Source: a virus
Lineage: Duplodnaviria > Heunggongvirae > Uroviricota > Caudoviricetes
DNA length: 52,140 nt
IMG/VR virus record: IMGVR_UViG_3300027770_000034
Direction: 5' to 3' (one strand)
Of this stretch, positions 4,572 through 22,122 are shown in pieces. Within the stretch, counting starts at the first letter, position 1. Every line of letters begins with the position of its first letter. Made by a program: the position numbers and the translations under genes. The notes under the pieces were generated by a model that worked only from the letters and a program-made list of their open reading frames with translations, ran no database searches and was not told the origin of the DNA.

Positions 4572-7500
4572 ATGGCAAACGAATTTGTAGCCCGTAACGG
4601 TATAAAAGTTTTGGTGGTCCCAAGTGGAAGTTCATCAAATCAAGTCGTGGTATGGAACGCGACAACGAATCAATTAGAAAGAAGAACTGATGCTGGTACC
4701 TCAGGTTCTTCAGGAACAAGTGGGTCATCAGGTTCTTCAGGAACGTCTGGTTCAAGTGGTACGTCAGGTTCTTCAGGAACATCGGGTAGTTCAGGTTCTT
4801 CTGGAACATCAGGTTCAAGTGGTTCATCAGGAACATCAGGTTCAAGTGGTTCATCAGGAACGTCAGGTTCATCAGGAACAAGTGGTTCATCAGGAACAGC
4901 TGGCTCATCAGGTTCTTCAGGAACGTCAGGTTCAAGTGGTTCATCAGGAACAAGCGGTAGTTCAGGTTCATCGGGAACATCTGGTTCAAGTGGTACATCA
5001 GGTTCATCAGGAACAAGTGGTTCATCAGGAACAAGTGGTTCATCAGGAACAAGTGGTAGCTCAGGCTCATCAGGAACATCAGGTTCAAGTGGTTCATCAG
5101 GAACGTCTGGCTCAAGTGGTTCTTCAGGTACAAGTGGTTCATCAGGAACTGCTGGTTCTTCAGGAACCTCAGGTTCAAGTGGTTCATCAGGTTCTTCAGG
5201 TTCATCAGGAACATCAGGTTCAAGTGGTTCATCAGGTTCTTCAGGTTCAAGTGGTACATCAGGTTCTTCAGGAACCTCTGGTTCAAGCGGAACAAGTGGT
5301 AGCTCAGGTTCTTCAGGAACTTCAGGTAGCTCAGGTTCATCAGGAACAAGTGGTAGTTCAGGTTCTTCAGGAACATCTGGTTCAAGTGGTACGTCAGGTT
5401 CTTCAGGAACATCAGGTAGCTCAGGTTCATCAGGTAGTTCAGGTTCATCAGGAACTTCAGGTAGCTCAGGTTCATCAGGAACAAGTGGCTCTTCGGGAAC
5501 AAGTGGCTCAAGTGGGACTTCAGGTTCATCAGGAACATCAGGTTCAAGCGGTTCATCAGGAACAAGTGGTAGCTCAGGTTCATCAGGAACGTCTGGCTCA
5601 TCAGGTTCATCAGGAACGTCTGGTTCAAGTGGAACATCTGGTTCTTCAGGAACAGCTGGTTCTTCAGGTTCTTCAGGTAGCTCAGGTTCTTCGGGAACAT
5701 CAGGTTCTTCTGGTTCTTCAGGAACAAGTGGTTCAAGTGGTTCTTCAGGAACATCTGGTTCAAGTGGTTCTTCAGGAACATCTGGTTCAAGTGGTACGTC
5801 AGGTTCAAGCGGAACAAGCGGTAGTTCAGGTTCATCGGGAACATCAGGTAGTTCAGGTTCATCAGGAACAAGCGGTTCAAGTGGAACCTCTGGTTCTTCA
5901 GGAACAGCTGGCTCATCAGGTTCATCAGGTAGCTCAGGTTCTTCAGGAACTTCAGGTAGCTCAGGTTCATCAGGTAGTTCAGGTTCTTCAGGAACTAGTG
6001 GTTCAAGTGGAACAGCTGGTTCATCAGGTAGTTCAGGTTCTTCAGGTAGTTCAGGTTCTTCAGGTAGTTCAGGTTCTTCAGGTAGTTCAGGTTCTTCAGG
6101 AACAAGTGGTTCAAGTGGAACATCAGGTTCTTCAGGAACAGCTGGTTCATCTGGCTCATCAGGAACAAGTGGTAGCTCAGGTTCTTCAGGAACAAGTGGT
6201 AGCTCAGGTTCTTCAGGAACAAGTGGTTCAAGTGGAACAGCTGGTTCTTCAGGAACGGCAGGTTCAAGTGGTTCATCAGGAACGTCTGGTTCATCAGGTT
6301 CTTCAGGAACGTCTGGTTCATCAGGTTCTTCAGGAACATCTGGTTCAAGTGGTTCAAGTGGAACATCAGGTTCTTCAGGAACAGCTGGTTCATCTGGCTC
6401 ATCAGGAACAAGTGGTAGCTCAGGTTCTTCAGGAACAAGTGGTAGCTCAGGTTCTTCAGGAACAAGTGGTTCAAGTGGAACATCTGGTTCATCAGGAACG
6501 GCTGGCTCATCAGGTAGTTCAGGTTCATCAGGAACAAGTGGAAGCTCGGGTTCTTCGGGAACTTCAGGTGTATCAGGAGCGTCAGGGACATCAGGTTCAT
6601 CAGGAACGTCTGGTTCATCAGGAACGTCTGGTTCATCAGGAACAGCTGGCTCGTCTGGTTCATCAGGAACTTCAGGTTCAAGTGGTTCATCAGGTTCAAG
6701 TGGTTCATCAGGAACTTCAGGTATAAATGGTTCATCGGGAACATCAGGTTCTTCAGGAACAGCTGGCTCATCAGGTTCATCAGGTAGCTCAGGTTCTTCT
6801 GGTTCTTCAGGAACAAGTGGTAGTTCAGGTTCATCAGGAAGTTCAGGTTCATCAGGAACAAGTGGCTCAAGTGGTTCTTCAGGTAGCTCAGGTTCTTCAG
6901 GTAGTTCAGGTAGCTCAGGTTCTTCAGGAAAGTCAGGTTCATCAGGAACGTCTGGTTCAAGTGGAACATCTGGTTCATCAGGAACATCTGGTTCTTCGGG
7001 AACTGCTGGTTCATCAGGTTCATCAGGAACTTCAGGAAGCTCAGGTTCATCAGGAACTTCAGGTAGTTCAGGTTCATCTGGAACTTCAGGTATAAATGGT
7101 TCATCGGGAACATCAGGTTCTTCAGGAACAGCTGGCTCATCAGGTTCATCAGGTAGCTCAGGTTCTTCTGGTTCTTCAGGAACAAGTGGTAGCTCGGGTT
7201 CTAGTGGTACTTCAGGTAGTTCTGGTACATCTGGTTCTTCAGGAACAGCTGGCTCATCAGGTTCATCAGGTAGCTCAGGTTCTTCTGGTTCTTCAGGAAC
7301 AAGTGGTAGTTCAGGTTCATCAGGAACGTCTGGTTCAAGTGGTTCTTCAGGAACATCAGGTAGCTCAGGAACATCAGGTAGCTCAGGAACATCAGGTAGC
7401 TCAGGAACATCAGGTTCAAGCGGTTCTAGTGGTAGTTCAGGTTCAAGTGGAACATCAGGTTCAAGTGGAACATCAGGTTCTTCTGGTTCAAGTGGAACAA

Positions 7501-8018
7501 GTGGTAGCTCAGGTTCATCAGGAACTTCAGGAAACTCAGCGGTTGTAAATAACAATACAAATACTTTTGTTGTTACGGCAACAGGAACAGCAGGAACAGT
7601 TCAAGGTAACGCAGGTCTTAGATATGATGGTTCAACATTGAATGTAACAGGGGATACCACAATGACAGGAGCTTTAACCGCAGCATCAAAATCATTTGAC
7701 ATCCCTCACCCAACAAAAGAAGGATTCAGATTAAGATACGGTGTGTTAGAAGGACCAGAACATGGAGTATACGTTAGAGGTATTGCAACATCAAAAGTAA
7801 TAGAATTACCTGATTATTGGACAGGATTAGTTCACGAAAATAGTATAACAATTCAATTGACACCAATAGGTTCAGCAACACTACATTATCTTGTTAAGAT
7901 TGAAGATAATAAAATTTACATAGATTCTGAAACATCAGTTATAAATGTTAGTTTCTTCATACAAGCAGAACGTAAAGATGTTGAAAAAGTATTGATAGAA
8001 TACAAAGAACAAGACTAA
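4572..8018 (+). CDS. Collagen-like (GSS/GTS/GTA) fibre protein with C-terminal S74-like intramolecular chaperone domain
   Basis: 1148 aa: 41-aa N-terminus MANEFVARNG, about 948 aa of Gly-X-Y, a neck motif, then SKSFDIPHP..LRYGVLEGPEHGVYVRG. Confidence 0.85.
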   Translation: MANEFVARNGIKVLVVPSGSSSNQVVVWNATTNQLERRTDAGTSGSSGTSGSSGSSGTSGSSGTSGSSGTSGSSGSSGTSGSSGSSGTSGSSGSSGTSGSSGTSGSSGTAGSSGSSGTSGSSGSSGTSGSSGSSGTSGSSGTSGSSGTSGSSGTSGSSGTSGSSGSSGTSGSSGSSGTSGSSGSSGTSGSSGTAGSSGTSGSSGSSGSSGSSGTSGSSGSSGSSGSSGTSGSSGTSGSSGTSGSSGSSGTSGSSGSSGTSGSSGSSGTSGSSGTSGSSGTSGSSGSSGSSGSSGTSGSSGSSGTSGSSGTSGSSGTSGSSGTSGSSGSSGTSGSSGSSGTSGSSGSSGTSGSSGTSGSSGTAGSSGSSGSSGSSGTSGSSGSSGTSGSSGSSGTSGSSGSSGTSGSSGTSGSSGTSGSSGSSGTSGSSGSSGTSGSSGTSGSSGTAGSSGSSGSSGSSGTSGSSGSSGSSGSSGTSGSSGTAGSSGSSGSSGSSGSSGSSGSSGSSGSSGTSGSSGTSGSSGTAGSSGSSGTSGSSGSSGTSGSSGSSGTSGSSGTAGSSGTAGSSGSSGTSGSSGSSGTSGSSGSSGTSGSSGSSGTSGSSGTAGSSGSSGTSGSSGSSGTSGSSGSSGTSGSSGTSGSSGTAGSSGSSGSSGTSGSSGSSGTSGVSGASGTSGSSGTSGSSGTSGSSGTAGSSGSSGTSGSSGSSGSSGSSGTSGINGSSGTSGSSGTAGSSGSSGSSGSSGSSGTSGSSGSSGSSGSSGTSGSSGSSGSSGSSGSSGSSGSSGKSGSSGTSGSSGTSGSSGTSGSSGTAGSSGSSGTSGSSGSSGTSGSSGSSGTSGINGSSGTSGSSGTAGSSGSSGSSGSSGSSGTSGSSGSSGTSGSSGTSGSSGTAGSSGSSGSSGSSGSSGTSGSSGSSGTSGSSGSSGTSGSSGTSGSSGTSGSSGTSGSSGSSGSSGSSGTSGSSGTSGSSGSSGTSGSSGSSGTSGNSAVVNNNTNTFVVTATGTAGTVQGNAGLRYDGSTLNVTGDTTMTGALTAASKSFDIPHPTKEGFRLRYGVLEGPEHGVYVRGIATSKVIELPDYWTGLVHENSITIQLTPIGSATLHYLVKIEDNKIYIDSETSVINVSFFIQAERKDVEKVLIEYKEQD
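4695..7538 (+). repeat. Coding Gly-X-Y block (about 316 triplets, apparently uninterrupted, no Pro)
   Basis: Gly at every third residue from GTS at 4695 to GNS at 7530-7538. Rare variants are GVS, GAS, GIN and GKS. Confidence 0.9.
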
Positions 8019-8656: not shown

Positions 8657-11365
8657 ATGTCAATTAGGGTAAATAAAGGTAATTTTAAAATAAATGCAAT
8701 TGCGAGAGCGGTTCTTACGTTTATTCCACCTACACCAACTCCAACGACAACACCAACAACAACTCCGACAGCAACAGTTGGAACAAGTCCTACTCCAACT
8801 CCAAGTATCACTGCAAGTCCTACTTTAACAAAAACGCCAACAGTAACTCCTACGCCTTCAATAACCGCATCTCAAACAGTAACACCAACAAATACTGCAA
8901 GTCAAACACAAACTCCAACACCTTCAATTACTGCTAGCCAAACCGTAACACCAAGTAATACCGCAACTCAAACACAAACTCCTACACCAAGTATAACTGC
9001 ATCACAAACTGTAACACCAAGTAATACTGCAACTCAAACACAAACTCCTACACCATCAATTACTGCTAGTCAAACACCAACACAAGGCTCAACACCAACT
9101 CCAACAATAACTCAAACACAAACTCCAACACCTTCAATTACTGCTAGCCAAACCGTAACACCAAGTAATACTGCAACTCAAACACAAACTCCTACGCCTT
9201 CAATCACCGCATCACAAACCGTAACACCAAGTAATACTGCAACTCAAACACAAACTCCTACGCCTTCAATCACCGCATCACAAACTGTGACACCAAGTAA
9301 TACTGCAACTCAAACACAAACTCCTACGCCTTCAATCACCGCATCACAAACTGTGACACCAAGTAATACCGCAACTCAAACTCAGACTCCTACACCAAGT
9401 ATAACCGCATCACAAACCCAAACTCCTACACCAAGTATAACCGCATCACAAACCCAAACTCCTACACCAAGTATAACCGCTAGCCAAACAGTAACTCCAA
9501 CTAATACCGCAACTCAGACTCAAACACCAACTCCAAGTATAACTGCATCACAAACACAAACACCAACTAATACTCCAACACCAACTAATACGCCAACTAA
9601 TACTTCAACCCCTACTAATACTCCAACTCAAACAGTAACACCATCATCAGTTCTTTATAATTGTGCATCTTGTACAGGAACAGGGTGGGTTCCATATAGT
9701 AGTACTCAATGTTATAAACAAACAGTAAGTGCCGCAACTCCTCCAACATATACAGTACCATTACAAAGAACTGGGTTTGTTGATTATTCAATAAATGGTA
9801 CAAGATTCTTTAACTCTGGATATACTATTGGTGGAACTGGGTCAGTACAAGCAACATCAACAACAAATAACATTTGGTACAATCAAGTACCAAATAGTTC
9901 TACGGGACCAATGAATAGAAGTGCAATTTGGTACACTGCAGATACTTTACAAAATACTTGGATAGGATTTTCAACTTGTTTATCGGCGTCAACAATTAAT
10001 GCGACCAAGACTTACTACATTGGTACGGGTGCGGATAATGAATTCAGACTTGTGTTAGATGGTCAAGTTATAATTGATACGACTTATGGTAGTATGCCAG
10101 CTAGCGATAAATTTAAATATTGGAATGTTTATCCTGTAACAATTCCTGCGGGTAATCATACTCTTGAATTATATGGTTTAGATTATGGAGTAGTTGCAGG
10201 GTTTGGTATGGAAATTTATGATAATACATTAACCCAATTGACCGCAGCAACTTCAACAAGTAATTTGAATATTATTTGGTCAAGTAGCGGATACACAACA
10301 GCTGAAATAGTACAAGATACTTCAGGTTATTATTTATCTTCAGGGTATACTTGTACTTATCCTGCGGTTTATTCAGTATGTAGTGGTGGATGTATTGATT
10401 ACGTATATTGTGATGCACCAGGTATAACACCAACTCCAACACATACCGCAACTCAAACAAATACTCCGACAAATACTTCAACTAAGACACCAACTCAGAC
10501 TCAAACTCCTACACCAACTAATACCGCAACTCAGACTCAAACTCCTACACCATCAATTACTGCTAGTCAAACACAAACACCTACACCAAGTATAACTGCA
10601 TCACAAACACCAACACCAACTCAAACACAAACAGGAACCGCAGCAGTAACACCAACACCAACTCCTACACCATTTGCAACATTTGTAGCATCATTTAGTT
10701 TCACAAGCCAAAGTGATGTATGTTATCAAAGTGGGATAATTCCTATTGATAATTTCAGAATAATTAACAGTAGAACTGCTGGTTCAGATTTCTGTGATAA
10801 TAGTATACAAGTAAGAAGTGCAATTATTGATGGAGCAACGTCTAATTTTATTTGGTTAAAATTACAAGGAACTGAAACAGTTAGAATGTTCCAAATACTA
10901 TTGAATACTTTAGGAGGATATTATTATGCAATACCATACGAAGCTTGTACAACTTGTCCTACCCAAACCCCAACTCCTACCCAAACTCCTACCCAAACTC
11001 CTACCCAAACACCAACTCAAACACCAACAGAAACACCACCAGGAACATTTACAATTTCATGGACAAATAATTTTATAAACACTGGAACAAATACTTTGAA
11101 CATATACAAGAACGCTGTTTTAATAGTAAACCAATCTGGACAAGGTAATAATTCGTTTTCAGTTAATAGTAATGATGTTATAACTTATGAATTAATATCC
11201 ACCACACCTGACTATACCGAAGTTCAAATAATTGATAATATAAATGGTACTATTTCAAATTGTGGATACGGAAGTGCAAGTGTTGCAGAAACAAATGGGT
11301 ATTCCTATACAAGTAACGCTACAATAGATGGAGTCACAACAAATTACGTAGGTGGATGTCCATAA
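8657..11365 (+). CDS. Thr-Pro mucin-like putative virion protein with Cys-bounded PA14-like domain
   Basis: Long TPTPSITASQTVTPSNTATQTQ repeats flank a domain containing YYIGTGADNEFRLVLDGQVIID..GNHTLELYG. Confidence 0.75.
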   Translation: MSIRVNKGNFKINAIARAVLTFIPPTPTPTTTPTTTPTATVGTSPTPTPSITASPTLTKTPTVTPTPSITASQTVTPTNTASQTQTPTPSITASQTVTPSNTATQTQTPTPSITASQTVTPSNTATQTQTPTPSITASQTPTQGSTPTPTITQTQTPTPSITASQTVTPSNTATQTQTPTPSITASQTVTPSNTATQTQTPTPSITASQTVTPSNTATQTQTPTPSITASQTVTPSNTATQTQTPTPSITASQTQTPTPSITASQTQTPTPSITASQTVTPTNTATQTQTPTPSITASQTQTPTNTPTPTNTPTNTSTPTNTPTQTVTPSSVLYNCASCTGTGWVPYSSTQCYKQTVSAATPPTYTVPLQRTGFVDYSINGTRFFNSGYTIGGTGSVQATSTTNNIWYNQVPNSSTGPMNRSAIWYTADTLQNTWIGFSTCLSASTINATKTYYIGTGADNEFRLVLDGQVIIDTTYGSMPASDKFKYWNVYPVTIPAGNHTLELYGLDYGVVAGFGMEIYDNTLTQLTAATSTSNLNIIWSSSGYTTAEIVQDTSGYYLSSGYTCTYPAVYSVCSGGCIDYVYCDAPGITPTPTHTATQTNTPTNTSTKTPTQTQTPTPTNTATQTQTPTPSITASQTQTPTPSITASQTPTPTQTQTGTAAVTPTPTPTPFATFVASFSFTSQSDVCYQSGIIPIDNFRIINSRTAGSDFCDNSIQVRSAIIDGATSNFIWLKLQGTETVRMFQILLNTLGGYYYAIPYEACTTCPTQTPTPTQTPTQTPTQTPTQTPTETPPGTFTISWTNNFINTGTNTLNIYKNAVLIVNQSGQGNNSFSVNSNDVITYELISTTPDYTEVQIIDNINGTISNCGYGSASVAETNGYSYTSNATIDGVTTNYVGGCP
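8730..9640 (+). repeat. Imperfect coding tandem repeat, 66-bp/22-aa unit TPTPSITASQTVTPSNTATQTQ with shorter variants
   Basis: Repeated units visible in both DNA and translation. Boundaries are approximate. Confidence 0.8.
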
Positions 11366-12029: not shown

Positions 12030-14312
12030 TTATAACGGCAAACTATTAAACACTTGTAATGGTGTGATAGATTTTTGACAAATATGTTGTCTCTCAGTTC
12101 CTTTATAAACTGGACACCAATCCCAATCACCACCATCAAACGTTAACACAGGGTCATTCCAACATTTAATACAAAGGTTGTTTGAAACTCTTGTCATGTT
12201 ATATGAAAACTCATGATTATTTTCACTGAATCCTGCAATCATAACTGTTTTTTTACCTAACGCCCAGTTCATCCAAGATAGACCTGAACTTAAACCTACG
12301 AAGAAATCTGCGTGGAATAAAACATTCATAACTTCAGACCAATCTTTGGTATGGTTGTGTATGACACCATCAATATTGTATTTCTTTAATGATAAAATTA
12401 CAACTTCATATCCCAATTCTTTTAACATTTTTGAAAGGGTAACCCAATTTTCAAAAACCCATTCTTTACAACCCGCAGTTGATTGAGGACCAAAAACAAC
12501 ATATTTCTTTTTTATTGGTCTTGCTTTAGGTGTGAAATTTAAACTATAATTCATCTCCCTGTATTTCAAACCTAAGATATCTGTTGCGGTTTGTTGTAGA
12601 GGAATTAGATTAATCTGAGTTGGATAATTATCAAACTTTCTCCAAGTTTGATTATCATCTTTAAACCAACCTAATCTATAGACCACATCACAATTAGTTG
12701 ACTCACCAGGTTTTATGAATGAAATGTCACTATAATCTTTGGAACCTTCAAACCATTCATTGTGGAATGTACTTAAAACAACCTTACATTTTTTTTCATT
12801 CATTAATTCAATTGCATAAGGTGCCCATGCTAATGTGTCACCGATAGCCTTTGTTTCAAAAGAGATTAAAACAGTTTTATTCTCCAAACTAAATCTATCA
12901 ACAATTTCTCCGTTAACTTTTATAATCCAAGGAATGAAATATTTTTTGGAGCTGGCAACCCACATATTATTGGTAATTGTTTGAGAATGAATTACCTTAT
13001 CATTATCACCATTGATGAACTCAACAAAATATTCTTTTTTCTCATCACCTAAAACTTCAAATCTTGGACCATCTAAGTAATTTATAATAAATCTATTTTC
13101 TTTTTTTGGTTTATCTAACCAAGGTTTTCTTTCTAAGAAATCGTTAATTGTTTCCAATCCTATTTCAGCAATACGTTCCCAATTAAATTCTTCTCTAATC
13201 TGTTCTGATTCTACTAATGCAAATGTTTTATATCTTTTATAATCACCATAAACCGCAATCATCTTTTCACCTAAATCATCAAAATCGGGTTCATAATAAT
13301 TTCCAACATTATCATTGAAATGATTATATGTGCTAGCACTTACTGGTAATTCGTGTGATATCTTAACAGGAATACCTTTACCTTCACCAAATTCTAATTG
13401 ACCTGAACAATCTGAATAGATTGATGGAGTACCACAAGCCATCGCTTCAATAAGAGGTAAGTTCCAACCTTCAGCTCTTGCACAAGATACAAATACACTA
13501 CAAGATTTTAATAGTCTAATATATTCTTCTCTTGGTGGGAAATGAAGAATCTTAATCCTATCATCTTCCAAACCATAATGTTTTAATCTTTCTTCAGTTG
13601 AATTCAATCCATCATTTGAGAATGGGTTATCAACAGAAACAATTAATTCAACAGGTTCGTTATTATTGAATGTGTTTACAAAAGTTTCAATAACCTCCTT
13701 GATGGACTTTCTATAATCCCATCTTCCTGCTAAAAAGAATGTGAACTTATCTTTTGTTAATGGGTGAGTAACCTCTGTGTCAGGGTAGAATGTGTTTACA
13801 TCAACACCTTCAGGTACCACCTTAATTCTATTTGGGTCATAACCTTGTGCAATGGTACAATCTCTTTGCCATTTTGATGGAACCCACATTTCATCAAACT
13901 CTTTTAACTTATTAAAGTATTGTTGAGGTTGTAAGGTTGATTCCCATACGTTGTAGGCAATTTTTGGACCATCGTAGTTATCGTAAAAAATGTGATGATT
14001 TGTTTCACACAATACAATATTGACATCAGGTTCAAACTCTTTAGATACATCAGGGTATAAAGGGAAATCACCTCTTGTTTTATCTGAGTTCCAAAGGATT
14101 TGTTTGTATAATAATTTTTTATCAATCTCATTAAAATAATGTTCATTATCATGAGCATTTTTATTGTATCCTTTCCACGATTTACCGACAGTAAAGTTTC
14201 TAACTTTAATATCTGCGTGTTTATCTAAATGTCTGAAAAAATCTCTTGTGTGTTGATTATATCCTGTGTCACCAACGTAAGAACCGTGGGCATAAATTTT
14301 AGGTTTGCTCAT
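12030..14312 (-). CDS. Fusion of a GT4-family glycosyltransferase and a TibC/Aah-like (BAHT) protein O-heptosyltransferase
   Basis: The N-terminal half has the GT4 motifs VWES, WVPSKW, GRWDYRK and EGWNLPLIEAMACG (EX7E). The C-terminal half has WVASSKKYF, VLISF..AIGDTLAWAPY, FFVGLSSGLSWMNWALGKKTVMIAGFS and the four-Cys segment CIKCWND..FD..DWDWCP..KGTERQHICQKSITP.QV, all recalling Aah/TibC. Confidence 0.85.
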   Translation of the reverse strand: MSKPKIYAHGSYVGDTGYNQHTRDFFRHLDKHADIKVRNFTVGKSWKGYNKNAHDNEHYFNEIDKKLLYKQILWNSDKTRGDFPLYPDVSKEFEPDVNIVLCETNHHIFYDNYDGPKIAYNVWESTLQPQQYFNKLKEFDEMWVPSKWQRDCTIAQGYDPNRIKVVPEGVDVNTFYPDTEVTHPLTKDKFTFFLAGRWDYRKSIKEVIETFVNTFNNNEPVELIVSVDNPFSNDGLNSTEERLKHYGLEDDRIKILHFPPREEYIRLLKSCSVFVSCARAEGWNLPLIEAMACGTPSIYSDCSGQLEFGEGKGIPVKISHELPVSASTYNHFNDNVGNYYEPDFDDLGEKMIAVYGDYKRYKTFALVESEQIREEFNWERIAEIGLETINDFLERKPWLDKPKKENRFIINYLDGPRFEVLGDEKKEYFVEFINGDNDKVIHSQTITNNMWVASSKKYFIPWIIKVNGEIVDRFSLENKTVLISFETKAIGDTLAWAPYAIELMNEKKCKVVLSTFHNEWFEGSKDYSDISFIKPGESTNCDVVYRLGWFKDDNQTWRKFDNYPTQINLIPLQQTATDILGLKYREMNYSLNFTPKARPIKKKYVVFGPQSTAGCKEWVFENWVTLSKMLKELGYEVVILSLKKYNIDGVIHNHTKDWSEVMNVLFHADFFVGLSSGLSWMNWALGKKTVMIAGFSENNHEFSYNMTRVSNNLCIKCWNDPVLTFDGGDWDWCPVYKGTERQHICQKSITPLQVFNSLPL

Positions 14313-14321
14313 TTGTTAAAT

Positions 14322-14362
14322 TATTTATTGAAAATATAAAGGATATGTGTTATAATTTCAAT
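14322..14362. promoter_or_regulatory. Divergent promoter region of the glycan cassette
   Basis: Plus strand: TATTTAT at 14322-14328 and TTGAAA(14328-33)-17 nt-TGn-TATAAT(14351-56). Minus strand: near-match ATTG-20 nt-TATATTTT (14331-14362). Confidence 0.45.
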
Positions 14363-14377
14363 TGAAAACTAAATATT

Positions 14378-15022
14378 ATGGCACAAGGAGTACATAAAAT
14401 AACAGAAGATTTTGAAAAAGCTCTGTGTGACTACACGGGAGCCCCTCATGCAATCGCATTAGATAACATGAGTAACGCATTATTTTTGGCGTTATACTAT
14501 GAAAAAAACATTAAAAAAACATTAACGAGTGATACTGTTGATTGTCCATCAAAGACATATCCTTCGGTTCCTTGTGAAATAATTCATGCAGGATTGAAAG
14601 TTAATTTTACACCTGTTGAAGGAAAAACAATCAAAGGAGCCTATACCCTATCACCATCCAACGTAGTAGACTCAGCACTCAGATTTACGGCTGATATGTA
14701 CCAAGCGGGTACTCACATGTGTTTATCTTTTACAGGTCCGTATAAGACCTTAAAATTGAGCAAAGGTGGTGCAATTATTACCGATGATTATCAGGCGATG
14801 TTATGGTTCAAAAGAGCAAGATTTAGTGGAAGGAGAGAATGTTCATATCATGATGACCATTTTGACATGCTCGGTTGGAATTTTTATATGATGCCAGAAC
14901 TTTCGGCAAGAGGGTTATTGATGATGACACAGTTCTACAATTTAGATGGGACAAAAAAACATAATGCGGATTTGGAATTACCTTATCCTGACTTATCAAA
15001 ATACGAAATTTATAACAAATGA
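14378..15022 (+). CDS. DegT/DnrJ/EryC1/StrS-family PLP sugar aminotransferase, short form
   Basis: FEKALCDYTGAPHAIAL, VDSA, SFTGPYK (catalytic Lys position), GGAIITDD, GWNFYM. At 214 aa it is shorter than typical members. Confidence 0.8.
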   Translation: MAQGVHKITEDFEKALCDYTGAPHAIALDNMSNALFLALYYEKNIKKTLTSDTVDCPSKTYPSVPCEIIHAGLKVNFTPVEGKTIKGAYTLSPSNVVDSALRFTADMYQAGTHMCLSFTGPYKTLKLSKGGAIITDDYQAMLWFKRARFSGRRECSYHDDHFDMLGWNFYMMPELSARGLLMMTQFYNLDGTKKHNADLELPYPDLSKYEIYNK

Positions 15023-15600
15023 AATTAGCATTATTTGGATACGGGGGGCATGCTCGTGAGGTTGCGGTACAGATAGGTCAAGATGTGACCTTCTTTGTTG
15101 ATGATGACTATGTAACAGAAAAGACTAAACCTATTAGTTCATTTGACCCGTCTGAATATGTTATGATGGTCGCGGTATCGGATGTAAACGATAGAAAAAG
15201 AATTGTTGACTCACTTCCAAAAGAAACAAAATATTTCACGTTTGTTCACCCAACAGTTCTTAGTATGGATAACAATATTGAAATCGGTGAAGGAAGTTTT
15301 ATCGGAGCGTATTCAATATTAACAACCAATATTAAAGTTGGAAAACATTCAATATTAAATAGAGGAAATCAAATCGGTCATGATTCAATAATTGGAGATT
15401 ACTTTAGTGCGATGCCAGGTGCTATTATTTCGGGTAATGTTATTTTAGGAGAAAATGTTTATATGGGAACTAATTCTTCAATCAGAGAAAAAATTCATGT
15501 GTGTTCAAATGTAACAATTGGGTCAAATGCAACGGTTGTAAAAAATATTATAACAGGTGGGACATATGTTGGAGTTCCTGGTAAATTCAAAAAAAATTAA
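15019..15600 (+). CDS. PglD/NeuD-family sugar acetyltransferase (hexapeptide repeat)
   Basis: LFGYGGHAREV N-terminus, FVHP, hexapeptide repeats including IGHD, and GTYVGVPGK at the C-terminus. Confidence 0.85.
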   Translation: MKLALFGYGGHAREVAVQIGQDVTFFVDDDYVTEKTKPISSFDPSEYVMMVAVSDVNDRKRIVDSLPKETKYFTFVHPTVLSMDNNIEIGEGSFIGAYSILTTNIKVGKHSILNRGNQIGHDSIIGDYFSAMPGAIISGNVILGENVYMGTNSSIREKIHVCSNVTIGSNATVVKNIITGGTYVGVPGKFKKN

Positions 15601-15601
15601 C

Positions 15602-16504
15602 ATGGTCCTTAAACATAGTTCAGATAAAATAACTTTTATTGTAGATACAATTCATTCAATTGGGTATGAGACAAAGGGTGCATCAATTGCTTGTCATAGG
15701 TTGGCTTATGAGCTGGCTAATCAGGGTCACTACGTTTATATTTTTAATGAACCGTTTTATCCTCATGAAAATATTGGAGTAATACCCGTTGAAAAAAGAA
15801 ATGAAGATGATGGGTGGTGGAATAAATTTTATTGGACACCATTTGGATATAATCCTGAAAGAACAGTTTCAATATACACTCAAATAACGTGGGGTAACCC
15901 GATGAATACAATTCATAATGTAAGATGGGTATTACACGATTATGAGTCTGTGCAATGGGAGACATTTGGTGATAATGAATATGTTTGTAATTTTGGAACA
16001 TTTCAAGTTCCTGAAGGAATTAAACAAACTAAATTGACTATTTTTGATTATAAGTTTGATAAGTTTTATGATAAAAATAATCCAAGTAGAAAAGGTTTTG
16101 GACATATAATCCATAAGAATACTCCTGAATGGGGGTTAGAATTTTTAAAACAATTTGGGTCAACAGAAATATCACATTATAACGGACAAAAAAATCTTGA
16201 TTATTTAACGGACGAGTTCAACAAGTATGAATATGTTTTAACTTTTGATGATAAGTCATATTATACCACGGCAGCCGCTCTGTGTGGAACCAAGAGTATT
16301 ATTTTGAATCCAAATGAGAATATAACACCATCGGAATATAGATTAGAAAACCCTATTCAAATGTGCGGTGTTGCATATGGGATGAACAATATAAAATGGG
16401 CAGACCAAACGATTGGGTTGGTTAGAGACCATTTATTAGAATTGGAAAAAAGAGATAAACAAACAATATCTAATTTTTTAGAATATTGGAATAAAACATT
16501 ATAA
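15602..16504 (+). CDS. Putative glycosyltransferase, WavQ-like
   Basis: ACHRLAYELANQGH, WGNPMN..NVRWVLH, YYTTAAALCGTKSII. The ATG at 15602, right after the upstream stop, is preferred to the track start at 15557. Confidence 0.5.
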   Translation: MVLKHSSDKITFIVDTIHSIGYETKGASIACHRLAYELANQGHYVYIFNEPFYPHENIGVIPVEKRNEDDGWWNKFYWTPFGYNPERTVSIYTQITWGNPMNTIHNVRWVLHDYESVQWETFGDNEYVCNFGTFQVPEGIKQTKLTIFDYKFDKFYDKNNPSRKGFGHIIHKNTPEWGLEFLKQFGSTEISHYNGQKNLDYLTDEFNKYEYVLTFDDKSYYTTAAALCGTKSIILNPNENITPSEYRLENPIQMCGVAYGMNNIKWADQTIGLVRDHLLELEKRDKQTISNFLEYWNKTL

Positions 16505-16506
16505 TA

Positions 16507-18387
16507 GTGGAAAAACAAGTAGGGTTAGTTGAAGTGTGGTTAGGTAAAATACCTGACTATTTCCAGTATCATCTTGAAACAATAGGGACAATATCCTGTG
16601 CCGACTTTTACTTCTTTACCAACGATAGAGAGTACGATTTTTCTCAAATTAAACATGACAACTTTCATTTAAATTACATAGATGAAACTGAATTTTTAGA
16701 GAGATTTAATAAAACATCAAACATTAAAGTTGATAAGATATCACACCCAAAGAAGATTATTGATTTCAAATTAGCTTATTTTGAGATGTTTTCTGACTAC
16801 GTTGGAAACTACCCATATGTTGGAATATACGATATTGATACAATGTTTGGTGATATTAATCAAACCATATTGGATAGTGTTAATCGTTATGATTTTATCT
16901 CTGTGGGTGATGAAGTATACCATAACAGATTGAGTGGGCCTTTGATGATTGTTAGAAATACCAAAGAATTCCACGACTTAATGAAGACCGATAGATACTA
17001 TGAAACATTAGTACAGGAAGACATATATGGTTACGGAGAACAAGAGTTATCTGTCATTGCGATGAACAACTATAAGACCAAGATAATCTACTCAATGAAT
17101 ACCGAAACAAATAATGGTGGAAAAAACAGTTACGATGTTTGTTGGAGTGGTGGTAAGTTAATTGTAAATAAAGAGGAGAAGTTAATCTATCATTTTATTA
17201 GGAAGAACCACACCATTTTTCAAAAGGTTGGAAACCAAATATTCGGTAGATATGATAAACAGTTTGCTGAAGACTTTTATTGGGTGTTTGGATTTACAGA
17301 GAATTACTCTCAGACAGTGCCATATTTGATGGATTCAATTAACAAATATTCTAATAGGATGTGTGTTATCTATACCATAAATTTTGATTATCAAATACCT
17401 AAAAAATTTTTAACAAGTGGTCAATTTATATTCAAAAGAATTGACATACCTGAGGGAAAAAAAGATTATAGAGGAAGAGATGAAAACATTATTAGCTCCA
17501 AACCAAAATTAATGTTGGATGTTTTGAATTTCTTACCAAACAAAAAATTCATCTTTATTGATAGTGATGTTAGCTTAACAGTTAGTGCTGACGACATCAG
17601 TAAGTATTTTTCAAGATTAACCAACTTTCCATTAATCAATTCACACACTCATGACAGAATTTATTTAAGTGGATTGGTTGAAGGTGAGCAGTGGACCAGT
17701 ACGATTGATATTGTTGCGAATAAAGTTGGGGTAGAGGTATGTGTTTATCCAAGAAGAAAGACAAACATTATGTTGTTTGATGAAAATTCAAGATGGTTTT
17801 TCCAAGAACAGATTGACCTATATGAAACGTATAAGGATAGTGAACCTGGTATATTTGCCTTTCATGATGAGGACTCAGCTAATCTAATTCTTTCAAAATA
17901 TAAATTATTTGATTGTCTTCATTTATGTGATATTGAAGAATGTGACGACATTGATATGGGTAAATTTTCAGATACCAATCATCCATTTCATATGACAGGG
18001 TTGTCTCCATTTTTGGTGTTACCAAAACATCAAAATGATGTGGTATTCTTTCACGGGCTAAAAGACATTGGTAGATTCCAATCCATAGAGAGGACATATG
18101 GAAACACTGTACTTGATTGTGAAGAATTGTTAGTAACCTATTCAAACAATTCTATTTTCTTTGAGAAGAACTCATTTTTAACTTCTAAAAAGATTGATGA
18201 GAATGTTGATTTCATAATATCTGACTTAGATGGTAATATCATTGAAAAATTAGAGAATCAACAACTAATGAATTATTGGGTTTTTTACCTATCAAATGTT
18301 TTTTTAGAAAAAAAATCTTATATTATTGAGATAGTTAAAACCCATAGTAAGGTCAAAATTTATAATAATCTTTTAAAAATACAATAA
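16507..18387 (+). CDS. Two-domain putative GT-A glycosyltransferase (DUF6625-like N-terminal domain plus a second DxD domain)
   Basis: GTG start. VWLGKIPDYFQY..IDFKLAY..GIYDIDTMFGDI in the first half and SSKPKLMLD..FIFIDSD in the second half. Confidence 0.55.
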   Translation: MEKQVGLVEVWLGKIPDYFQYHLETIGTISCADFYFFTNDREYDFSQIKHDNFHLNYIDETEFLERFNKTSNIKVDKISHPKKIIDFKLAYFEMFSDYVGNYPYVGIYDIDTMFGDINQTILDSVNRYDFISVGDEVYHNRLSGPLMIVRNTKEFHDLMKTDRYYETLVQEDIYGYGEQELSVIAMNNYKTKIIYSMNTETNNGGKNSYDVCWSGGKLIVNKEEKLIYHFIRKNHTIFQKVGNQIFGRYDKQFAEDFYWVFGFTENYSQTVPYLMDSINKYSNRMCVIYTINFDYQIPKKFLTSGQFIFKRIDIPEGKKDYRGRDENIISSKPKLMLDVLNFLPNKKFIFIDSDVSLTVSADDISKYFSRLTNFPLINSHTHDRIYLSGLVEGEQWTSTIDIVANKVGVEVCVYPRRKTNIMLFDENSRWFFQEQIDLYETYKDSEPGIFAFHDEDSANLILSKYKLFDCLHLCDIEECDDIDMGKFSDTNHPFHMTGLSPFLVLPKHQNDVVFFHGLKDIGRFQSIERTYGNTVLDCEELLVTYSNNSIFFEKNSFLTSKKIDENVDFIISDLDGNIIEKLENQQLMNYWVFYLSNVFLEKKSYIIEIVKTHSKVKIYNNLLKIQ

Positions 18388-18388
18388 C

Positions 18389-19534
18389 ATGCATCATTCA
18401 GCTTATGTAAACGCGGAAAAATTCGCAATAAAATACACTCCAAACTTAGAGGGTAAAAAAATTCTTGACGTTGGTTCATACGATGTTAACGGAACATTAA
18501 AACCAATTTTTGAGAAAGGAATCTACACTGGTTTGGATATGGAAGCAGGTCCAAATGTTGATGTTGTTTCTGATGCTCATAATATCCCTTTTGATAATGA
18601 ACATTTTGATATTGTTACATCATCGTCTTGTTTTGAACACGATGATATGTTTTGGGTAACATTCTTAGAAATGTGTAGAGTGGTAAAACCTGGTGGTTAT
18701 CTATATGTTCAAGCACCTTCAAATGGACCATACCACGGATGGCCTGGTGACAATTGGAGATTCTATATTGATAGTTGGAAAGCCTTAGAAAAGTGGGGTA
18801 AAAGAGAAGGATATGATATTGAATTAGTTGAACACTACATAGATGAGACAACTCCACCAGCAGAACACGAAGGAGATAGATTATGGAATGATTCTGTTGC
18901 GATATACAAGAAGAAACCATTACAAACATTTAATACTGATTTAAAGTCTATTGAAATAGGACATTTAAATACGACATATAGAGGGGTTATAATGCACAAA
19001 TGTCCATTTGATGTTACGATGTATCAAATGATAATAAATGAACTTAAACCTGACTTAATTATTGAGATTGGTACTTACAAAGGAGGTGGTGCCTTATATT
19101 ACGCTGACTTATTAGATATTATCGGTAAGGGAGAAGTTCATACAATTAATATAATGGAGGATGTTACTGACCCACAAATTATTAATAACTCAAGAATTAA
19201 ACGATTCACTGAAGGATATCAAAACTATGATATTAGTTTGGCTAACGGTTTTGAAAAAGTTTTGGTAATTGATGATGGTTCACATCATGCTCACGAAGTA
19301 TTGGAGGCGTTCAATAAATTCAAATCAGTAGTAACTTTAGGTTCGTACTATATTATTGAAGACGGAGTATTAAGTGATTTAGGTTATAACCCAACATATG
19401 GTGGTGGACCATTACAGGTTATGGATGAAATTATCAATAACAATAAAGACTTTACGGTTGATAGAAAATGGTGTGATTTTTATGGTGAGAATGCAACATT
19501 TAACCCTAATGGATATCTTAAAAGAACCAACTGA
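18389..19534 (+). CDS. Fusion of a class I SAM methyltransferase and a CmcI/rhamnosyl O-methyltransferase-like domain
   Basis: ILDVGSYDVNG..FEHDDMFW..VKPGG, then MHKCPFD..YQMIINELKPDLIIEIGTYKGG..VIDDGSH..YYIIEDG..FNPNGYLKR. Confidence 0.85.
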   Translation: MHHSAYVNAEKFAIKYTPNLEGKKILDVGSYDVNGTLKPIFEKGIYTGLDMEAGPNVDVVSDAHNIPFDNEHFDIVTSSSCFEHDDMFWVTFLEMCRVVKPGGYLYVQAPSNGPYHGWPGDNWRFYIDSWKALEKWGKREGYDIELVEHYIDETTPPAEHEGDRLWNDSVAIYKKKPLQTFNTDLKSIEIGHLNTTYRGVIMHKCPFDVTMYQMIINELKPDLIIEIGTYKGGGALYYADLLDIIGKGEVHTINIMEDVTDPQIINNSRIKRFTEGYQNYDISLANGFEKVLVIDDGSHHAHEVLEAFNKFKSVVTLGSYYIIEDGVLSDLGYNPTYGGGPLQVMDEIINNNKDFTVDRKWCDFYGENATFNPNGYLKRTN

Positions 19535-19540
19535 AGGACA

Positions 19541-20470
19541 ATGAATAAAGTAGCGTTAATCAGTACTTACTGTGATAATCAGGAAAAATTAGATGTTCTT
19601 GAGAAAAATATTGGCATAGTTAAATCTTATGGTTTAGATGTTATAGTGGTTAGTCCTATTGTTTTACCTGAAAGTATTCAAAAACAATGTGATTACTATT
19701 TCTTAACCAAAGACAATCCTGTGTTAGATTGGCCCAAAAGGGCAATGTACATATGGAGACAACTACCTTTAGGTGATGAGAAAATTGTAATAACAACAAC
19801 ATATCCTGACTACGGATGGGCGGGATTACTTCAAGTTAGACAATTAAGTGATATTGCATTAATGTTAAATTATGATTGTTTTTACCATATGATATATGAT
19901 TTAAAAATTGATGATAATGTAAAACATTATTTTGACAACCCACATGAAAATATAATTTTCCCATCCAAAAGAGGAAATGAGATATGGAAAGTAGGATTAC
20001 ACCTTATGATTTTTGATAGAAAGAATCTAACACAATTTAAGTCGTTAATCTCAGAAGAAAGTTATTTTGCGGTTAAAGGAGACCACGCATTTAAATGGTT
20101 AGAAAGAATTATTGGTACAACAAAATCTGAAATTGCAGAAACGCCTGTAGAAGATGAAATATATTACTACGAAGGTCACGACTTTTTCAATTCATCACCA
20201 GCAGAAGGAGTTAAATTTTTTATAAATAAAAACGATGAGGTTGATGAGACAATAAAACTATTATTTTATTATGTTTCTGAACCAAAAGAGGTAAGGATTA
20301 CTATAAATGATACCTTTTATGATTATGTAATTAATAAAGACTCACTCATTGATTTAGGGTTTGATAAATTTAATATTCCAAAAGTGTTATTTAAATATAT
20401 GGGTGTTGAATATGATATTACCAATACAATTAAAAAAATAAAACATAGTACACTTAACGTAACTAACTAA
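19541..20470 (+). CDS. Hypothetical protein in the glycan cassette, possible GT-A-like fold
   Basis: 309-aa ORF tightly coupled to its neighbours. No decisive motif recognised. Confidence 0.6.
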   Translation: MNKVALISTYCDNQEKLDVLEKNIGIVKSYGLDVIVVSPIVLPESIQKQCDYYFLTKDNPVLDWPKRAMYIWRQLPLGDEKIVITTTYPDYGWAGLLQVRQLSDIALMLNYDCFYHMIYDLKIDDNVKHYFDNPHENIIFPSKRGNEIWKVGLHLMIFDRKNLTQFKSLISEESYFAVKGDHAFKWLERIIGTTKSEIAETPVEDEIYYYEGHDFFNSSPAEGVKFFINKNDEVDETIKLLFYYVSEPKEVRITINDTFYDYVINKDSLIDLGFDKFNIPKVLFKYMGVEYDITNTIKKIKHSTLNVTN

Positions 20471-21860: not shown

Positions 21861-21861
21861 A

Positions 21862-22038
21862 CTATATTTTCTTTTTTTGTTCTTGTTTTGAATTGTATAA
21901 TTTAAGGAGTTTTAATGAGTCCTTATAGTGTTTTTCTAGTCTATCCAATTCTTCTAAGGGTACGTTTGTTTCTGAGGCAGCGTTATACTGGTCCTCAGCT
22001 TCTTGTATAATTTTCTTTATGGTCTTTAGAAGTTTCAT
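21862..22038 (-). CDS. Small hypothetical protein (58 aa), absent from the ORF track
   Basis: Hand translation: MKLLKTIKKIIQEAEDQYNAASETNVPLEELDRLEKHYKDSLKLLKLYNSKQEQKKKI*. It fills the intergenic gap, and a minus-strand TATTTAT lies at 22044-22050 just upstream. Confidence 0.6.
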   Translation of the reverse strand: MKLLKTIKKIIQEAEDQYNAASETNVPLEELDRLEKHYKDSLKLLKLYNSKQEQKKKI

Positions 22039-22122
22039 ATATGATAAATATAGTCTAAACCTATCTTTATTTAGTTTTCAATAAAACTATATTTTAATAT
22101 CTTTAAAAACCAATAGTCAGGT

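What the first reader, a model, noticed from the sequence alone, without database searches (positions are those of the whole stretch)
12030..14312. GT4 fused to a TibC/Aah-type iron-finger protein heptosyltransferase, the only large minus-strand gene in the first 40 kb
Seen: the C-terminal ~360 aa carry WVASSKKYF, ISF..AIGDTLAWAPY (catalytic Asp position), GLSSGLSW..WALGK and four Cys in CIKC..WCP..IC near 12076-12173. Established: BAHT enzymes have an N-terminal beta-barrel, a GT-B core and a 4-Cys ferric iron finger, form dodecamers and use ADP-heptose. Inference: a two-step enzyme in which the BAHT half primes Ser/Thr and the GT4 half extends. No ADP-heptose synthesis genes are visible here and many Bacteroidota LPS lack heptose, so the donor sugar may be novel.
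Basis: partly seen in the sequence, partly recalled or inferred. Interest (0 to 1): 0.82.

Follow-up and report, generated by a model that had tools for sequence, protein, structure and literature searches.

The report
Phage TibC-like enzyme beside serine-collagen fibres
A giant uncultured lake phage encodes a two-part sugar-transferring enzyme whose second half is a true relative of the E. coli adhesin-glycosylating enzymes TibC/Aah. It most likely sugar-coats the phage's own proline-free, serine/threonine-packed collagen-like fibres encoded next door, though no experiment has tested this.

Summary
ORF 12030-14312 (-) encodes 760 aa. Residues ~1-395 are a GT4 glycosyltransferase with an intact EX7E motif. 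Residues ~405-760 score above NCBI's equivalog cut-off for Aah/TibC (TIGR04414, 225.7 vs 200 bits) and superpose on the whole TibC chain (TM 0.80-0.83). The catalytic Asp, the phosphate-binding Thr/Lys, the sugar-contacting Trp and all four iron-finger Cys are conserved. Two TibC features are missing: the adenine-contacting Arg (Val here) and about 10 residues of the beta-hairpin thumb that builds the dodecamer.

The window is a phage. In a tree of 96 domains this one falls in a clade separate from Aah and the Burkholderia-type enzymes. That clade sits beside (Gly-Ser/Thr-Ser)n collagen-like genes in 19 of 27 usable loci, against 1 of 59 in the other clade. The window has two such fibres (56% Ser+Thr) 4 kb away.

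Best reading: a fibre O-glycosylation enzyme in which the BAHT half primes and the GT4 half extends.

The "novel donor" argument is weakened. Two complete relatives lack GmhA, but ADP-heptose genes are common in sampled genomes of a Bacteroidota MAG's phylum.

This scan reached the same reading earlier on other genomes. No paper describing it was found.

The parts
12030..14312 (-). Whole gene, 760 aa: GT4 + BAHT (Aah/TibC-type) fusion
13128..14312 (-). GT4 (retaining GT-B) half, residues ~1-395, with a long helical linker at its end (res 344-400)
   Evidence: PF00534 56.2 bits, phrog_2170 E 5e-34. Foldseek matches the chlorovirus GT 3oy2, MshA, GlgM and HepE.
13446..13472 (-). EX7E motif of GT4 enzymes (EGWNLPLIE, res 281-289)
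   Evidence: That EX7E marks GT4 enzymes is from my own knowledge.
12879..13100 (-). N-terminal beta-barrel of the BAHT half (res ~405-478, seven to eight strands)
   Evidence: DSSP of the model. PF21129 TibC_1st scores 21.9 bits, below its cut-off of 27. The superposition covers the whole TibC chain.
12033..12878 (-). BAHT catalytic GT-B core (res 479-760) including the finger insertion
   Evidence: TIGR04414 225.7 bits. TibC 4rap E 2e-43. TM 0.80-0.83.
12837..12839 (-). Asp492, aligned with catalytic Asp110 of TibC. Invariant in all 96 domains compared.
   Evidence: PMC4358343 (4rb4 is the D110A form).
12078..12173 (-). Cys714, Cys717, Cys733, Cys745, aligned with TibC Cys339/342/358/370 (iron finger)
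12330..12332 (-). Val661 at the position of TibC Arg286 (adenine N1 contact). Arg in 58 of 62 Aah-type domains and in 9 of 34 domains of this clade.
12339..12392 (-). Shortened thumb segment (res ~641-658): 17 residues against 27 in Aah/TibC-type enzymes. The hairpin tip is deleted.
   Evidence: PMC4358343 gives the role of the thumb.
14313..14377 (.). 65-bp divergent intergenic region with back-to-back sigma-70-like matches (11/12 on +, 10/12 on -)
   Evidence: These are consensus matches only, and the count in the region is not above chance.
1414..4422 (+). Collagen-like fibre, ~270 (G-S/T-S) triplets, 56% Ser+Thr, no Pro: candidate acceptor
4572..8018 (+). Second collagen-like fibre, ~315 (G-S/T-S) triplets, 56% Ser+Thr: candidate acceptor
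8657..11365 (+). 902-aa protein with mucin-like TPTPSITASQTQ repeats (36% Ser+Thr): alternative acceptor
14378..21860 (+). Divergently transcribed sugar-tailoring cassette: short DegT aminotransferase, PglD-like acetyltransferase, an unknown ORF, DUF6625, class I MTase + CmcI-like MTase, an unknown ORF, hexapeptide acetyltransferase, FkbM MTase
   Evidence: The same arrangement is seen in the 323-kb relative L002.

Best explanation
The gene encodes a cytoplasmic, bifunctional protein O-glycosyltransferase of a giant T4-type freshwater phage.

Proposed mechanism:
- The C-terminal Aah/TibC-type half transfers the first sugar onto Ser/Thr hydroxyls. The sugar is most simply a heptose taken from host ADP-heptose.
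- The acceptors are the phage's own proline-free (Gly-Ser/Thr-Ser)n collagen-like fibres (1414-4422, 4572-8018), and perhaps also the Pro/Thr-rich fibre proteins.
- The fused GT4 half, a retaining enzyme with EX7E, adds a second sugar.
- The divergent cassette (aminotransferase, two acetyltransferases, three methyltransferase domains, DUF6625) supplies or decorates further residues.

What is shown: family membership, fold, conserved catalytic and metal-site residues, the phage context, and the clade-wide linkage to GSS-collagen genes.

What is inferred: the acceptor, the donor, the order of the two halves, and any effect on fibre stability or host recognition.
For: Enzyme identity:
- TIGR04414 scores 225.7 bits against a cut-off of 200.
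- TibC 4rap matches at E 2e-43.
- The AF2 model has pLDDT 88 and superposes on TibC at TM 0.80-0.83 over the whole chain.
- Asp492, Thr612, Lys616, Trp680 and the four Cys align with TibC D110, T226, K230, W305 and C339/342/358/370. The aligned Asp, Lys, Trp and first two Cys are invariant in all 96 domains. Thr is replaced by Ser in 24 clade-B domains, and the last two Cys are each missing in one clade-A row.
- The GT4 half is above the Pfam cut-off and has EX7E.

Phage context:
- Neighbours are collagen-repeat tail-fibre PHROGs, a primase, SbcCD and homing endonucleases.
- Relatives lie on 317-323 kb contigs.

Acceptor:
- The two neighbouring fibres are 56% Ser+Thr.
- (G-S/T-S)n ORFs lie within about 10 kb of the enzyme gene in 6 of 8 related phage loci (L002-L009). 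Seven of the eight carry either such an ORF or a Pro/Thr-rich ORF.
- The same pairing is seen in Microcystis phage Mel-JY01 (44% identity) and a 735-kb megaphage (31%).
- It is also seen in MAG contigs L018, L020, L021, L023 and L027, and in six further gammaproteobacterial loci (L026, L029-L031, L036, L038), among them a 5.18-Mb Arenicellales chromosome (L026), where the BAHT stands alone.
- On the tree, the clade holding the window has such a neighbour in 19 of 27 loci of 9 kb or more. The Aah/Burkholderia clade has one in 1 of 59 (Fisher p 7e-12).
- Reference Aah genes sit beside AIDA-I instead.

Modularity:
- BAHT domains of this clade are fused to GT2, GT34, FkbM and PIG-L domains or duplicated. 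This fits a prime-then-elaborate logic.

Donor:
- ADP-heptose pathway genes are common in sampled genomes of the likely host phylum.
Against: - There is no biochemical or proteomic evidence that any of these fibres carries sugar.
- Gene neighbourhood within related phages is partly inherited synteny. The tree shows the linkage is a clade trait, not many independent gains.
- L003 and L006, the two closest relatives, and L009 in the same phage clade show no GSS gene within 10 kb.
- The acceptor geometry differs from the only known one, a beta-helix.
- The thumb that builds TibC's processive ring is deleted, so the TibC mechanism cannot simply be transferred.
- The adenine-contact Arg is Val, and two complete relatives have no GmhA, so the donor is open.
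- Which half acts first is unknown. GT4 enzymes such as GtfA can themselves prime Ser-rich repeats (from my own knowledge).
Confidence: 0.6

Rival explanations
1. The enzyme glycosylates other phage structural proteins rather than the collagen-like tracts. The main candidates are the mucin-like Pro/Thr-rich linkers of the 902-aa and 1414-aa proteins (8657-11365, 22147-26391).
For: PT-rich repeat proteins flank the gene in the window. They are the only Ser/Thr-rich neighbours in the closest relatives L003 and L006. PT-rich linkers are classic O-glycosylation sites in bacteria and fungi (my own knowledge).
Against: Across distant lineages the recurring neighbour is the GSS/GTS tract, not PT repeats. 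The gammaproteobacterial loci have only GSS-repeat proteins.
Confidence: 0.15
2. The two halves do not work in series. The BAHT half modifies a protein, while the GT4 half acts on a different acceptor such as another fibre, a lipid-linked glycan or a nucleotide-sugar intermediate.
For: The halves are separate GT-B folds joined by a long helix. The model's pTM is only 0.60 against pLDDT 88, so their relative placement is uncertain. BAHT domains of this clade occur alone or with quite different partners.
Against: The GT4+BAHT architecture is kept at constant length (754-764 aa) in the 120 listed of 2410 matching clusters. It is also kept in Mel-JY01 with an FkbM domain inserted. This argues for a functional unit.
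Confidence: 0.12
3. It is a host-takeover or superinfection-exclusion enzyme. It would glycosylate host surface proteins (adhesins, autotransporter-like or SprB-like proteins) or host LPS/capsule rather than virion parts.
For: Phage glycosyltransferases are usually interpreted this way in the literature (PMC7029224, PMC10202952). PHROGs files the GT4 half under 'moron, auxiliary metabolic gene and host takeover'. Known BAHTs act on secreted adhesins (PMC4358343).
Against: The gene lies inside the fibre module. The clade-wide partner is a collagen-like gene carried by the phage itself. No autotransporter is nearby.
Confidence: 0.08
4. The GT4 half is a DNA-base glycosyltransferase of the 'conflict system' type, and the gene protects phage DNA.
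For: PF20706 GT4-conflict scores 32.5 bits against a cut-off of 26. T4-type phages glycosylate DNA (my own knowledge).
Against: General GT4 models score higher. The domain is fused to a protein glycosyltransferase with beta-barrel and finger. The neighbours are fibre and sugar-tailoring genes, and no base-hydroxymethylase context was seen in the window.
Confidence: 0.03

Closest known systems
TibC-TibA and Aah-AIDA-I of E. coli (bacterial autotransporter heptosyltransferases, BAHT; TIGR04414; PDB 4RAP/4RB4; PMC4358343)
   Same: Same family by a curated HMM above its cut-off. Same fold over the whole chain: beta-barrel, atypical GT-B core and Cys4 finger. Same catalytic Asp, Thr/Lys phosphate contacts and Trp sugar contact. 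Ser at the position that lets Aah accept both heptose epimers. The enzyme gene lies next to a repetitive, Ser/Thr-rich surface-protein gene.
   Different: About 30-36% identity, in a separate clade. Fused to a GT4. No autotransporter nearby: the neighbour is a Pro-free collagen-like fibre. The thumb is shortened by 10 residues. The adenine-contact Arg is replaced by Val. It is encoded by a phage.
GtfA/GtfB O-GlcNAc transferase of serine-rich repeat adhesins in streptococci and staphylococci (my own knowledge)
   Same: A cytoplasmic GT4-family GT-B enzyme primes long Ser-rich repeats before export. Further transferases encoded beside it then extend the glycan.
   Different: No BAHT domain, and a different accessory domain (DUF1975). 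The acceptor is not collagen-like. No sequence relation was tested here beyond shared GT4 membership.
BclA exosporium collagen-like glycoprotein of Bacillus anthracis, and glycosylated collagen-like fibrils of giant viruses (my own knowledge; a review of autonomous glycosylation by large DNA viruses, PMC4691112, was listed but not read)
   Same: Collagen-like Gly-X-Thr tracts on a surface fibre are heavily O-glycosylated. The sugars are amino-, deoxy- and methylated, made by dedicated neighbouring genes. In the viral case the virus encodes the machinery.
   Different: Different transferase families. Those collagens contain Pro or hydroxylysine. None involves a BAHT.
Mycobacteriophage virion glycosylation (Che8, Corndog, Myrna; Freeman et al. 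2023, my own knowledge; not retrieved here)
   Same: Phage-encoded glycosyltransferases modify the phage's own structural proteins in the host cytoplasm.
   Different: The targets there are C-terminal extensions of capsid and tail-tube proteins. The transferases are unrelated GT-A/GT2-type enzymes. There is no collagen-like acceptor.

Membership tests
BAHT (Aah/TibC; TIGR04414) | Score above the curated equivalog cut-off of the family HMM, and well above LPS GT9 models | tested here: met
   225.7 bits against a cut-off of 200. TIGR02193 heptosyltransferase I scores only 27.8 bits.
BAHT (Aah/TibC; TIGR04414) | N-terminal flattened beta-barrel packed on an atypical GT-B core | tested here: met
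   The model has strands at 407-473. Foldseek aligns ~388 columns to the whole TibC chain at TM 0.80-0.83. PF21129 scores only 21.9 bits, below its cut-off of 27.
BAHT (Aah/TibC; TIGR04414) | Catalytic Asp (TibC D110), beta-phosphate Thr226/Lys230, heptose-O4 Trp305 | tested here: met
   D492, T612, K616 and W680 align. Asp, Lys and Trp are invariant in 96 domains; Thr is Ser in 24 clade-B domains. Residue roles are from PMC4358343.
BAHT (Aah/TibC; TIGR04414) | Four Cys of the 1Fe-0S iron finger (TibC C339/342/358/370) | tested here: met
   C714, C717, C733 and C745 align. The first two are invariant in 96 domains, the last two present in 95 of 96. Whether they bind iron cannot be tested with these tools.
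BAHT (Aah/TibC; TIGR04414) | Arg contacting adenine N1 (TibC R286), proposed basis of ADP-sugar specificity | tested here: not met
   Val661 in the window. Arg in 58 of 62 Aah-type domains and only 9 of 34 in the window's clade.
   The segment is 17 residues in the window against 27 in 61 of 62 Aah-type domains (26 in one). The tip is deleted.
BAHT (Aah/TibC; TIGR04414) | Ring-shaped dodecamer | not testable with these tools
   Too large to model here. It needs SEC-MALS or cryo-EM.
BAHT (Aah/TibC; TIGR04414) | Acceptor is the beta-helical passenger of an autotransporter encoded next to the enzyme | tested here: not met
   No autotransporter among the neighbours. Reference Aah genes on E. coli plasmids are followed by AIDA-I.
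BAHT (Aah/TibC; TIGR04414) | Uses ADP-heptose as donor | not testable with these tools
   Sequence cannot decide. Two complete phage relatives lack GmhA, but likely host phyla often carry the pathway.
CAZy GT4 / Pfam Glycos_transf_1 | HMM above cut-off, GT-B fold, EX7E motif in the C-terminal Rossmann domain | tested here: met
   PF00534 56.2 bits (cut-off 26.4) and PF13692 45.3 bits. Foldseek matches retaining GT4 structures at E 1e-16 to 1e-12. EGWNLPLIE lies at residues 281-289.

The most novel reading that the evidence does not exclude
The window's enzyme belongs to an undescribed sister clade of the autotransporter heptosyltransferases. Its natural acceptors would be proline-free (Gly-Ser/Thr-Ser)n collagen-like tracts, both on phage fibres and on bacterial Tat-signal/lipobox-bearing candidate lipoproteins. 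The dense O-glycosylation would then be what lets such Pro-free tracts form or keep a rigid triple helix. The clade may also use a donor other than ADP-heptose, because the adenine-reading Arg is lost.
Probability: 0.35. Interest if true: 0.8.

Novelty: new variant of a known kind. Interest (0 to 1): 0.66.

Why it matters
BAHT enzymes are known only as virulence-associated modifiers of autotransporter adhesins in Proteobacteria. A large, modular sister clade paired with Ser/Thr-only collagen-like genes would change that picture in three ways:
- It would widen the family's substrate range from beta-helices to collagen-like rods.
- It would add a second, mechanistically distinct example of phage self-glycosylation.
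- It would offer an explanation for how proline-free collagen-like fibres, common in aquatic phages, are stabilised or masked.

The family is large: 1320 clusters at 50% identity. It may therefore affect host recognition, virion stability and phage-host arms races in lakes. The enzyme could also be a tool for hyper-glycosylating designed Gly-Ser linkers.

Tried and rejected
- Complex prediction on two copies of the BAHT half, to ask whether the TibC back-to-back dimer is kept, returned 'no answer'. It is not used as evidence either way.
- No whole genome is held for the window, so heptose genes were sought in complete relatives instead.
- A 30-sequence alignment was too diverse for the search for related loci. 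A 9-sequence subset worked.
- A megablast of 13 kb of the window against isolated phages found nothing.
- The 'cytidylyltransferase-like' gene near the Mel-JY01 homologue was checked as a possible HldE-like adenylyltransferase. It has only a marginal PF01467 match (21.1 bits) and no kinase domain, so it was dropped.
- 'The C half is an ordinary LPS GT9' was rejected on HMM scores.
- 'The gene is a bacterial contaminant in a phage bin' was rejected because homologues lie on 317-323 kb viral contigs with the same synteny.
- Literature searches for a phage BAHT, for heptosyltransferase plus collagen-like, and for Mel-JY01 returned nothing relevant.
- The promoter scan is not above chance for the region as a whole.
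Full report
**1. Observation**

The minus-strand ORF 12030-14312 starts with ATG and encodes 760 aa.
- WVASSKKYF at residues 451-459
- AIGDTLAWAPY with Asp492
- GLSSGLSW at residues 673-680
- Cys714, 717, 733 and 745 at nt 12078-12173

It is the only credible large minus-strand gene before 40 kb. The other long minus-strand ORFs overlap the collagen-repeat genes and are antisense artefacts of stop-free repeats.

**2. What the protein is**

The N half:
- Residues 184-307 match Glycos_transf_1 at 56.2 bits against a cut-off of 26.4. Several other GT4 models also match, as does phrog_2170.
- The GT4 hallmark EX7E is intact (EGWNLPLIE, residues 281-289).

The C half:
- Residues 425-757 match NCBIfam TIGR04414 'autotransporter strand-loop-strand O-heptosyltransferase' at 225.7 bits, above the equivalog cut-off of 200. 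LPS heptosyltransferase I reaches only 27.8 bits.
- Against the PDB, the only strong sequence match is TibC (4rap, E 2e-43, residues 410-754).

The model:
- An AlphaFold2 model built on 23 homologues has mean pLDDT 88.
- Foldseek puts all TibC chains first, at TM 0.80-0.83 normalised to TibC over ~388 columns and 30% identity.
- Retaining GT4 structures follow for the N half: a chlorovirus NY2A glycosyltransferase (3oy2), then GlgM, MshA and HepE.

**3. Residue-level comparison with TibC**

Residue roles are taken from the TibC structure paper (PMC4358343).

| TibC residue | Role | Window residue | Status |
|---|---|---|---|
| Asp110 | catalytic | Asp492 | conserved |
| Thr226, Lys230 | beta-phosphate contacts | Thr612, Lys616 | conserved |
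| Trp305 | heptose O4 contact | Trp680 | conserved |
| Pro300 (Ser294 in Aah) | stereoselectivity | Ser675 | as in Aah, which accepts both heptose epimers |
| Cys339/342/358/370 | ferric iron ligands | Cys714/717/733/745 | conserved |
| Arg286 | H-bonds adenine N1; proposed basis of ADP specificity | Val661 | not conserved |

The aligned Asp, Lys, Trp and first two Cys are invariant across the 96 domains compared. The Thr is replaced by Ser in 24 clade-B domains, and the last two Cys are each missing in one clade-A row.

The two differences stand out:
- Arg286 is Arg in 58 of 62 Aah-type domains but in only 9 of 34 domains of the window's clade.
- The thumb segment is 27 residues in 61 of 62 Aah-type domains (26 in one) and 17 here. 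A TibC-like dodecamer therefore cannot be assumed.

**4. Context**

The window is phage DNA:
- Neighbours include collagen-repeat tail-fibre PHROGs (E down to 1e-130), a primase, SbcC/SbcD-like nucleases and homing endonucleases.
- No whole genome is held. Homologues lie on viral contigs of 317 and 323 kb with the same local gene order.
- Earlier notes of this scan call the genome a giant T4-type freshwater phage (not tested here).

The gene is transcribed divergently from a cassette at 14378-21860. That cassette encodes a short DegT-type aminotransferase, a PglD-like acetyltransferase, DUF6625, a class I plus CmcI-like methyltransferase, a hexapeptide acetyltransferase and an FkbM methyltransferase.

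On the other side lie the candidate acceptors:
- Two fibre genes, 1414-4422 and 4572-8018. Their products are 56% Ser+Thr and consist of about 270 and 315 uninterrupted Gly-(Ser/Thr)-Ser triplets without proline.
- A 902-aa protein with mucin-like TPTPSITASQTQ repeats.

**5. Comparative evidence for the acceptor**

Size and modularity of the family:
- The fusion is conserved at 754-764 aa and 70-98% identity in the 120 listed metagenome clusters, out of 2410 matches.
- The BAHT domain alone finds 1320 clusters at 50% identity, many in multidomain proteins.
- Sampled architectures include GT4+BAHT+PIG-L, GT2+GT34+BAHT, GT4+FkbM+MTase+BAHT and tandem BAHT.

Where (G-S/T-S)n ORFs lie near the enzyme gene:
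- In 6 of 8 related phage loci (L002-L009). Seven of the eight carry either such an ORF or a Pro/Thr-rich ORF.
- In Microcystis phage Mel-JY01 (44% identity), where GenBank annotates the opposite strand of the repeat.
- In a 735-kb megaphage (31% identity).
- In low-GC MAG contigs L018, L020, L021 and L023, and in the gammaproteobacterial MAG contig L027.
- In six further gammaproteobacterial loci (L026, L029-L031, L036, L038), among them a 5.18-Mb Arenicellales chromosome (L026). There a stand-alone 373-415 aa BAHT follows a DUF6502 gene. It is flanked by small proteins with an RR-type signal, a lipobox Cys, a GSS/GTS tract and an acidic tail.

A maximum-likelihood tree of 96 BAHT domains (quick search, SH-aLRT) splits them into two clades at 100% support:
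- Clade A has 34 rows: the window, phages, MAG contigs and the gammaproteobacterial loci.
- Clade B has 62 rows: two Aah genes next to AIDA-I, Burkholderiaceae, Acetobacteraceae and others.

Among loci of at least 9 kb, a GSS-type neighbour is present in 19 of 27 clade-A loci and 1 of 59 clade-B loci (Fisher p 7e-12). All fused forms are in clade A.

Relatedness inflates this p-value. The sound conclusion is that linkage to Ser/Thr collagen-like genes is a trait of the whole clade, spanning phages and cells. The stand-alone bacterial cases suggest the BAHT domain itself acts on the GSS tract. This supports 'BAHT primes, other transferases extend'.

**6. Donor**

- Two relatives rated 100% complete (317 kb and 176 kb) and Mel-JY01 have no GmhA (TIGR00441), no SIS_2 domain and no sugar-1-phosphate nucleotidyltransferase.
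- The two IMG/VR relatives rated complete, and the closest relative G004 (17% complete), do carry SDR-type sugar dehydratases/epimerases, including a GDP-mannose 4,6-dehydratase at 400 bits; none was found in Mel-JY01.
- The phage therefore tailors host nucleotide sugars rather than making them from scratch.
I sampled the phylum of a Chitinophaga MAG that carries a clade-A BAHT. GmhA-like genes (E <= 1e-30) occur in 138 of 201 genomes, and RfaE domain II above its equivalog cut-off in 37 of 61.
- The five cellular genomes holding clade-A loci all have a strong GmhA-like hit.

Host-supplied ADP-heptose is therefore plausible. I rate it the single most likely donor, at about 0.5. The lost adenine-contact Arg keeps another nucleotide sugar possible.

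**7. Mechanism proposed**

- Late in infection, the enzyme in the cytoplasm O-glycosylates the Ser/Thr hydroxyls of the nascent or assembled collagen-like fibres.
- The BAHT half adds the first sugar.
- The tethered GT4 half adds a second.
- The cassette enzymes provide N-acetylated amino-deoxy sugars and O-methyl caps.

A plausible purpose is to stabilise and stiffen a triple helix that has no proline. Shielding the fibre from proteases or from host recognition is another. This step is pure inference.

**8. Rivals**

The rivals are PT-repeat acceptors, independent action of the two halves, host-surface modification and DNA glycosylation. They are listed with their tests in the Rival explanations section.

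**9. Novelty**

- Databases already name such proteins automatically. JGI labels them 'autotransporter strand-loop-strand O-heptosyltransferase', and a UniProt entry from uncultured Caudovirales reads 'Glycosyltransferase Aah/TibC'.
- I found no paper describing a phage BAHT, or a BAHT linked to collagen-like proteins.
- This scan has reached the same reading before on other DNA: 84 notes in at least 71 genomes. Those notes are not independent evidence. The neighbourhood analysis, tree and residue comparisons here were done before I read them.

I class it as a new variant of a known kind. The enzyme family is known. The clade, architecture, host (a phage) and probable acceptor are new. All functional claims await experiment.

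Noticed in passing
L001 (Microcystis phage Mel-JY01, PP395634.1) 2-3052, + strand: The plus-strand frame reads a long GTS/GSS collagen-like protein of the same type as the window's fibres. GenBank annotates two 'hypothetical proteins' on the opposite strand (1-651, 739-2298), which is probably a strand mis-call over a stop-free repeat.
   Followed up: partly
L026 6528-6941, 9184-9795, 10137-10598; L029 6528-6926, 9253-9873; L036 5784-6991 (all minus strand): Gammaproteobacterial chromosomes and MAGs carry small proteins with an RR-type signal peptide, a lipobox (L-A/T-G-C), a (GSS/GTS)n tract and a poly-Asp/Glu tail. These flank a DUF6502 gene and a stand-alone BAHT, next to a histidine kinase and a sigma-54 response regulator. 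This looks like an uncharacterised cellular glyco-lipoprotein system.
   Followed up: partly
L004 12289-13170 (+) and G003 22967-23830: Some relatives have a second, truncated BAHT paralogue (293-299 aa, matching model positions 80-373, so without the beta-barrel) immediately downstream of the GT4-BAHT gene. The window lacks it.
   Followed up: no
window 8657-11365 and 22147-26391: Large proteins carry mucin-like TPTPSITASQTQ / PT-rich repeat linkers between Cys-rich globular modules. The 1414-aa protein contains an internal duplication (residues ~220-325 and ~455-525 are nearly identical).
   Followed up: no
window 11399-12028 and the C-terminus of 4572-8018 (res ~983-1148): A ~160-aa C-terminal domain (KSFDIxHPTKEG...LEGPEH...) is shared by the collagen-like fibre and a separate 209-aa ORF. 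Both match phrog_17490 and phrog_28536, which have no known function.
   Followed up: no
G004 (IMGVR_UViG_3300032283_000778) 13002-13688, 21416-24962 and 41609-44496: The closest relative (86-90% identity in this gene) carries seven SDR-type sugar dehydratase/epimerase genes. Three of them abut the GT4-BAHT gene at the place where the window has fibre genes instead, so the glyco-cassette around the conserved enzyme is variable.
   Followed up: no
P0233 and P0154 (alignment A1): Two BAHT-domain representatives have lost all four finger cysteines (for example TPHSGFFNT ... NWNPFK). The iron finger is therefore dispensable in at least one sub-lineage.
   Followed up: no
window 14313-14377: The 65-bp gap between the divergent genes holds overlapping, back-to-back TTGAAA-17-TATAAT/TATATT matches. 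This may be a shared bidirectional promoter. The scan as a whole is not above chance.
   Followed up: partly
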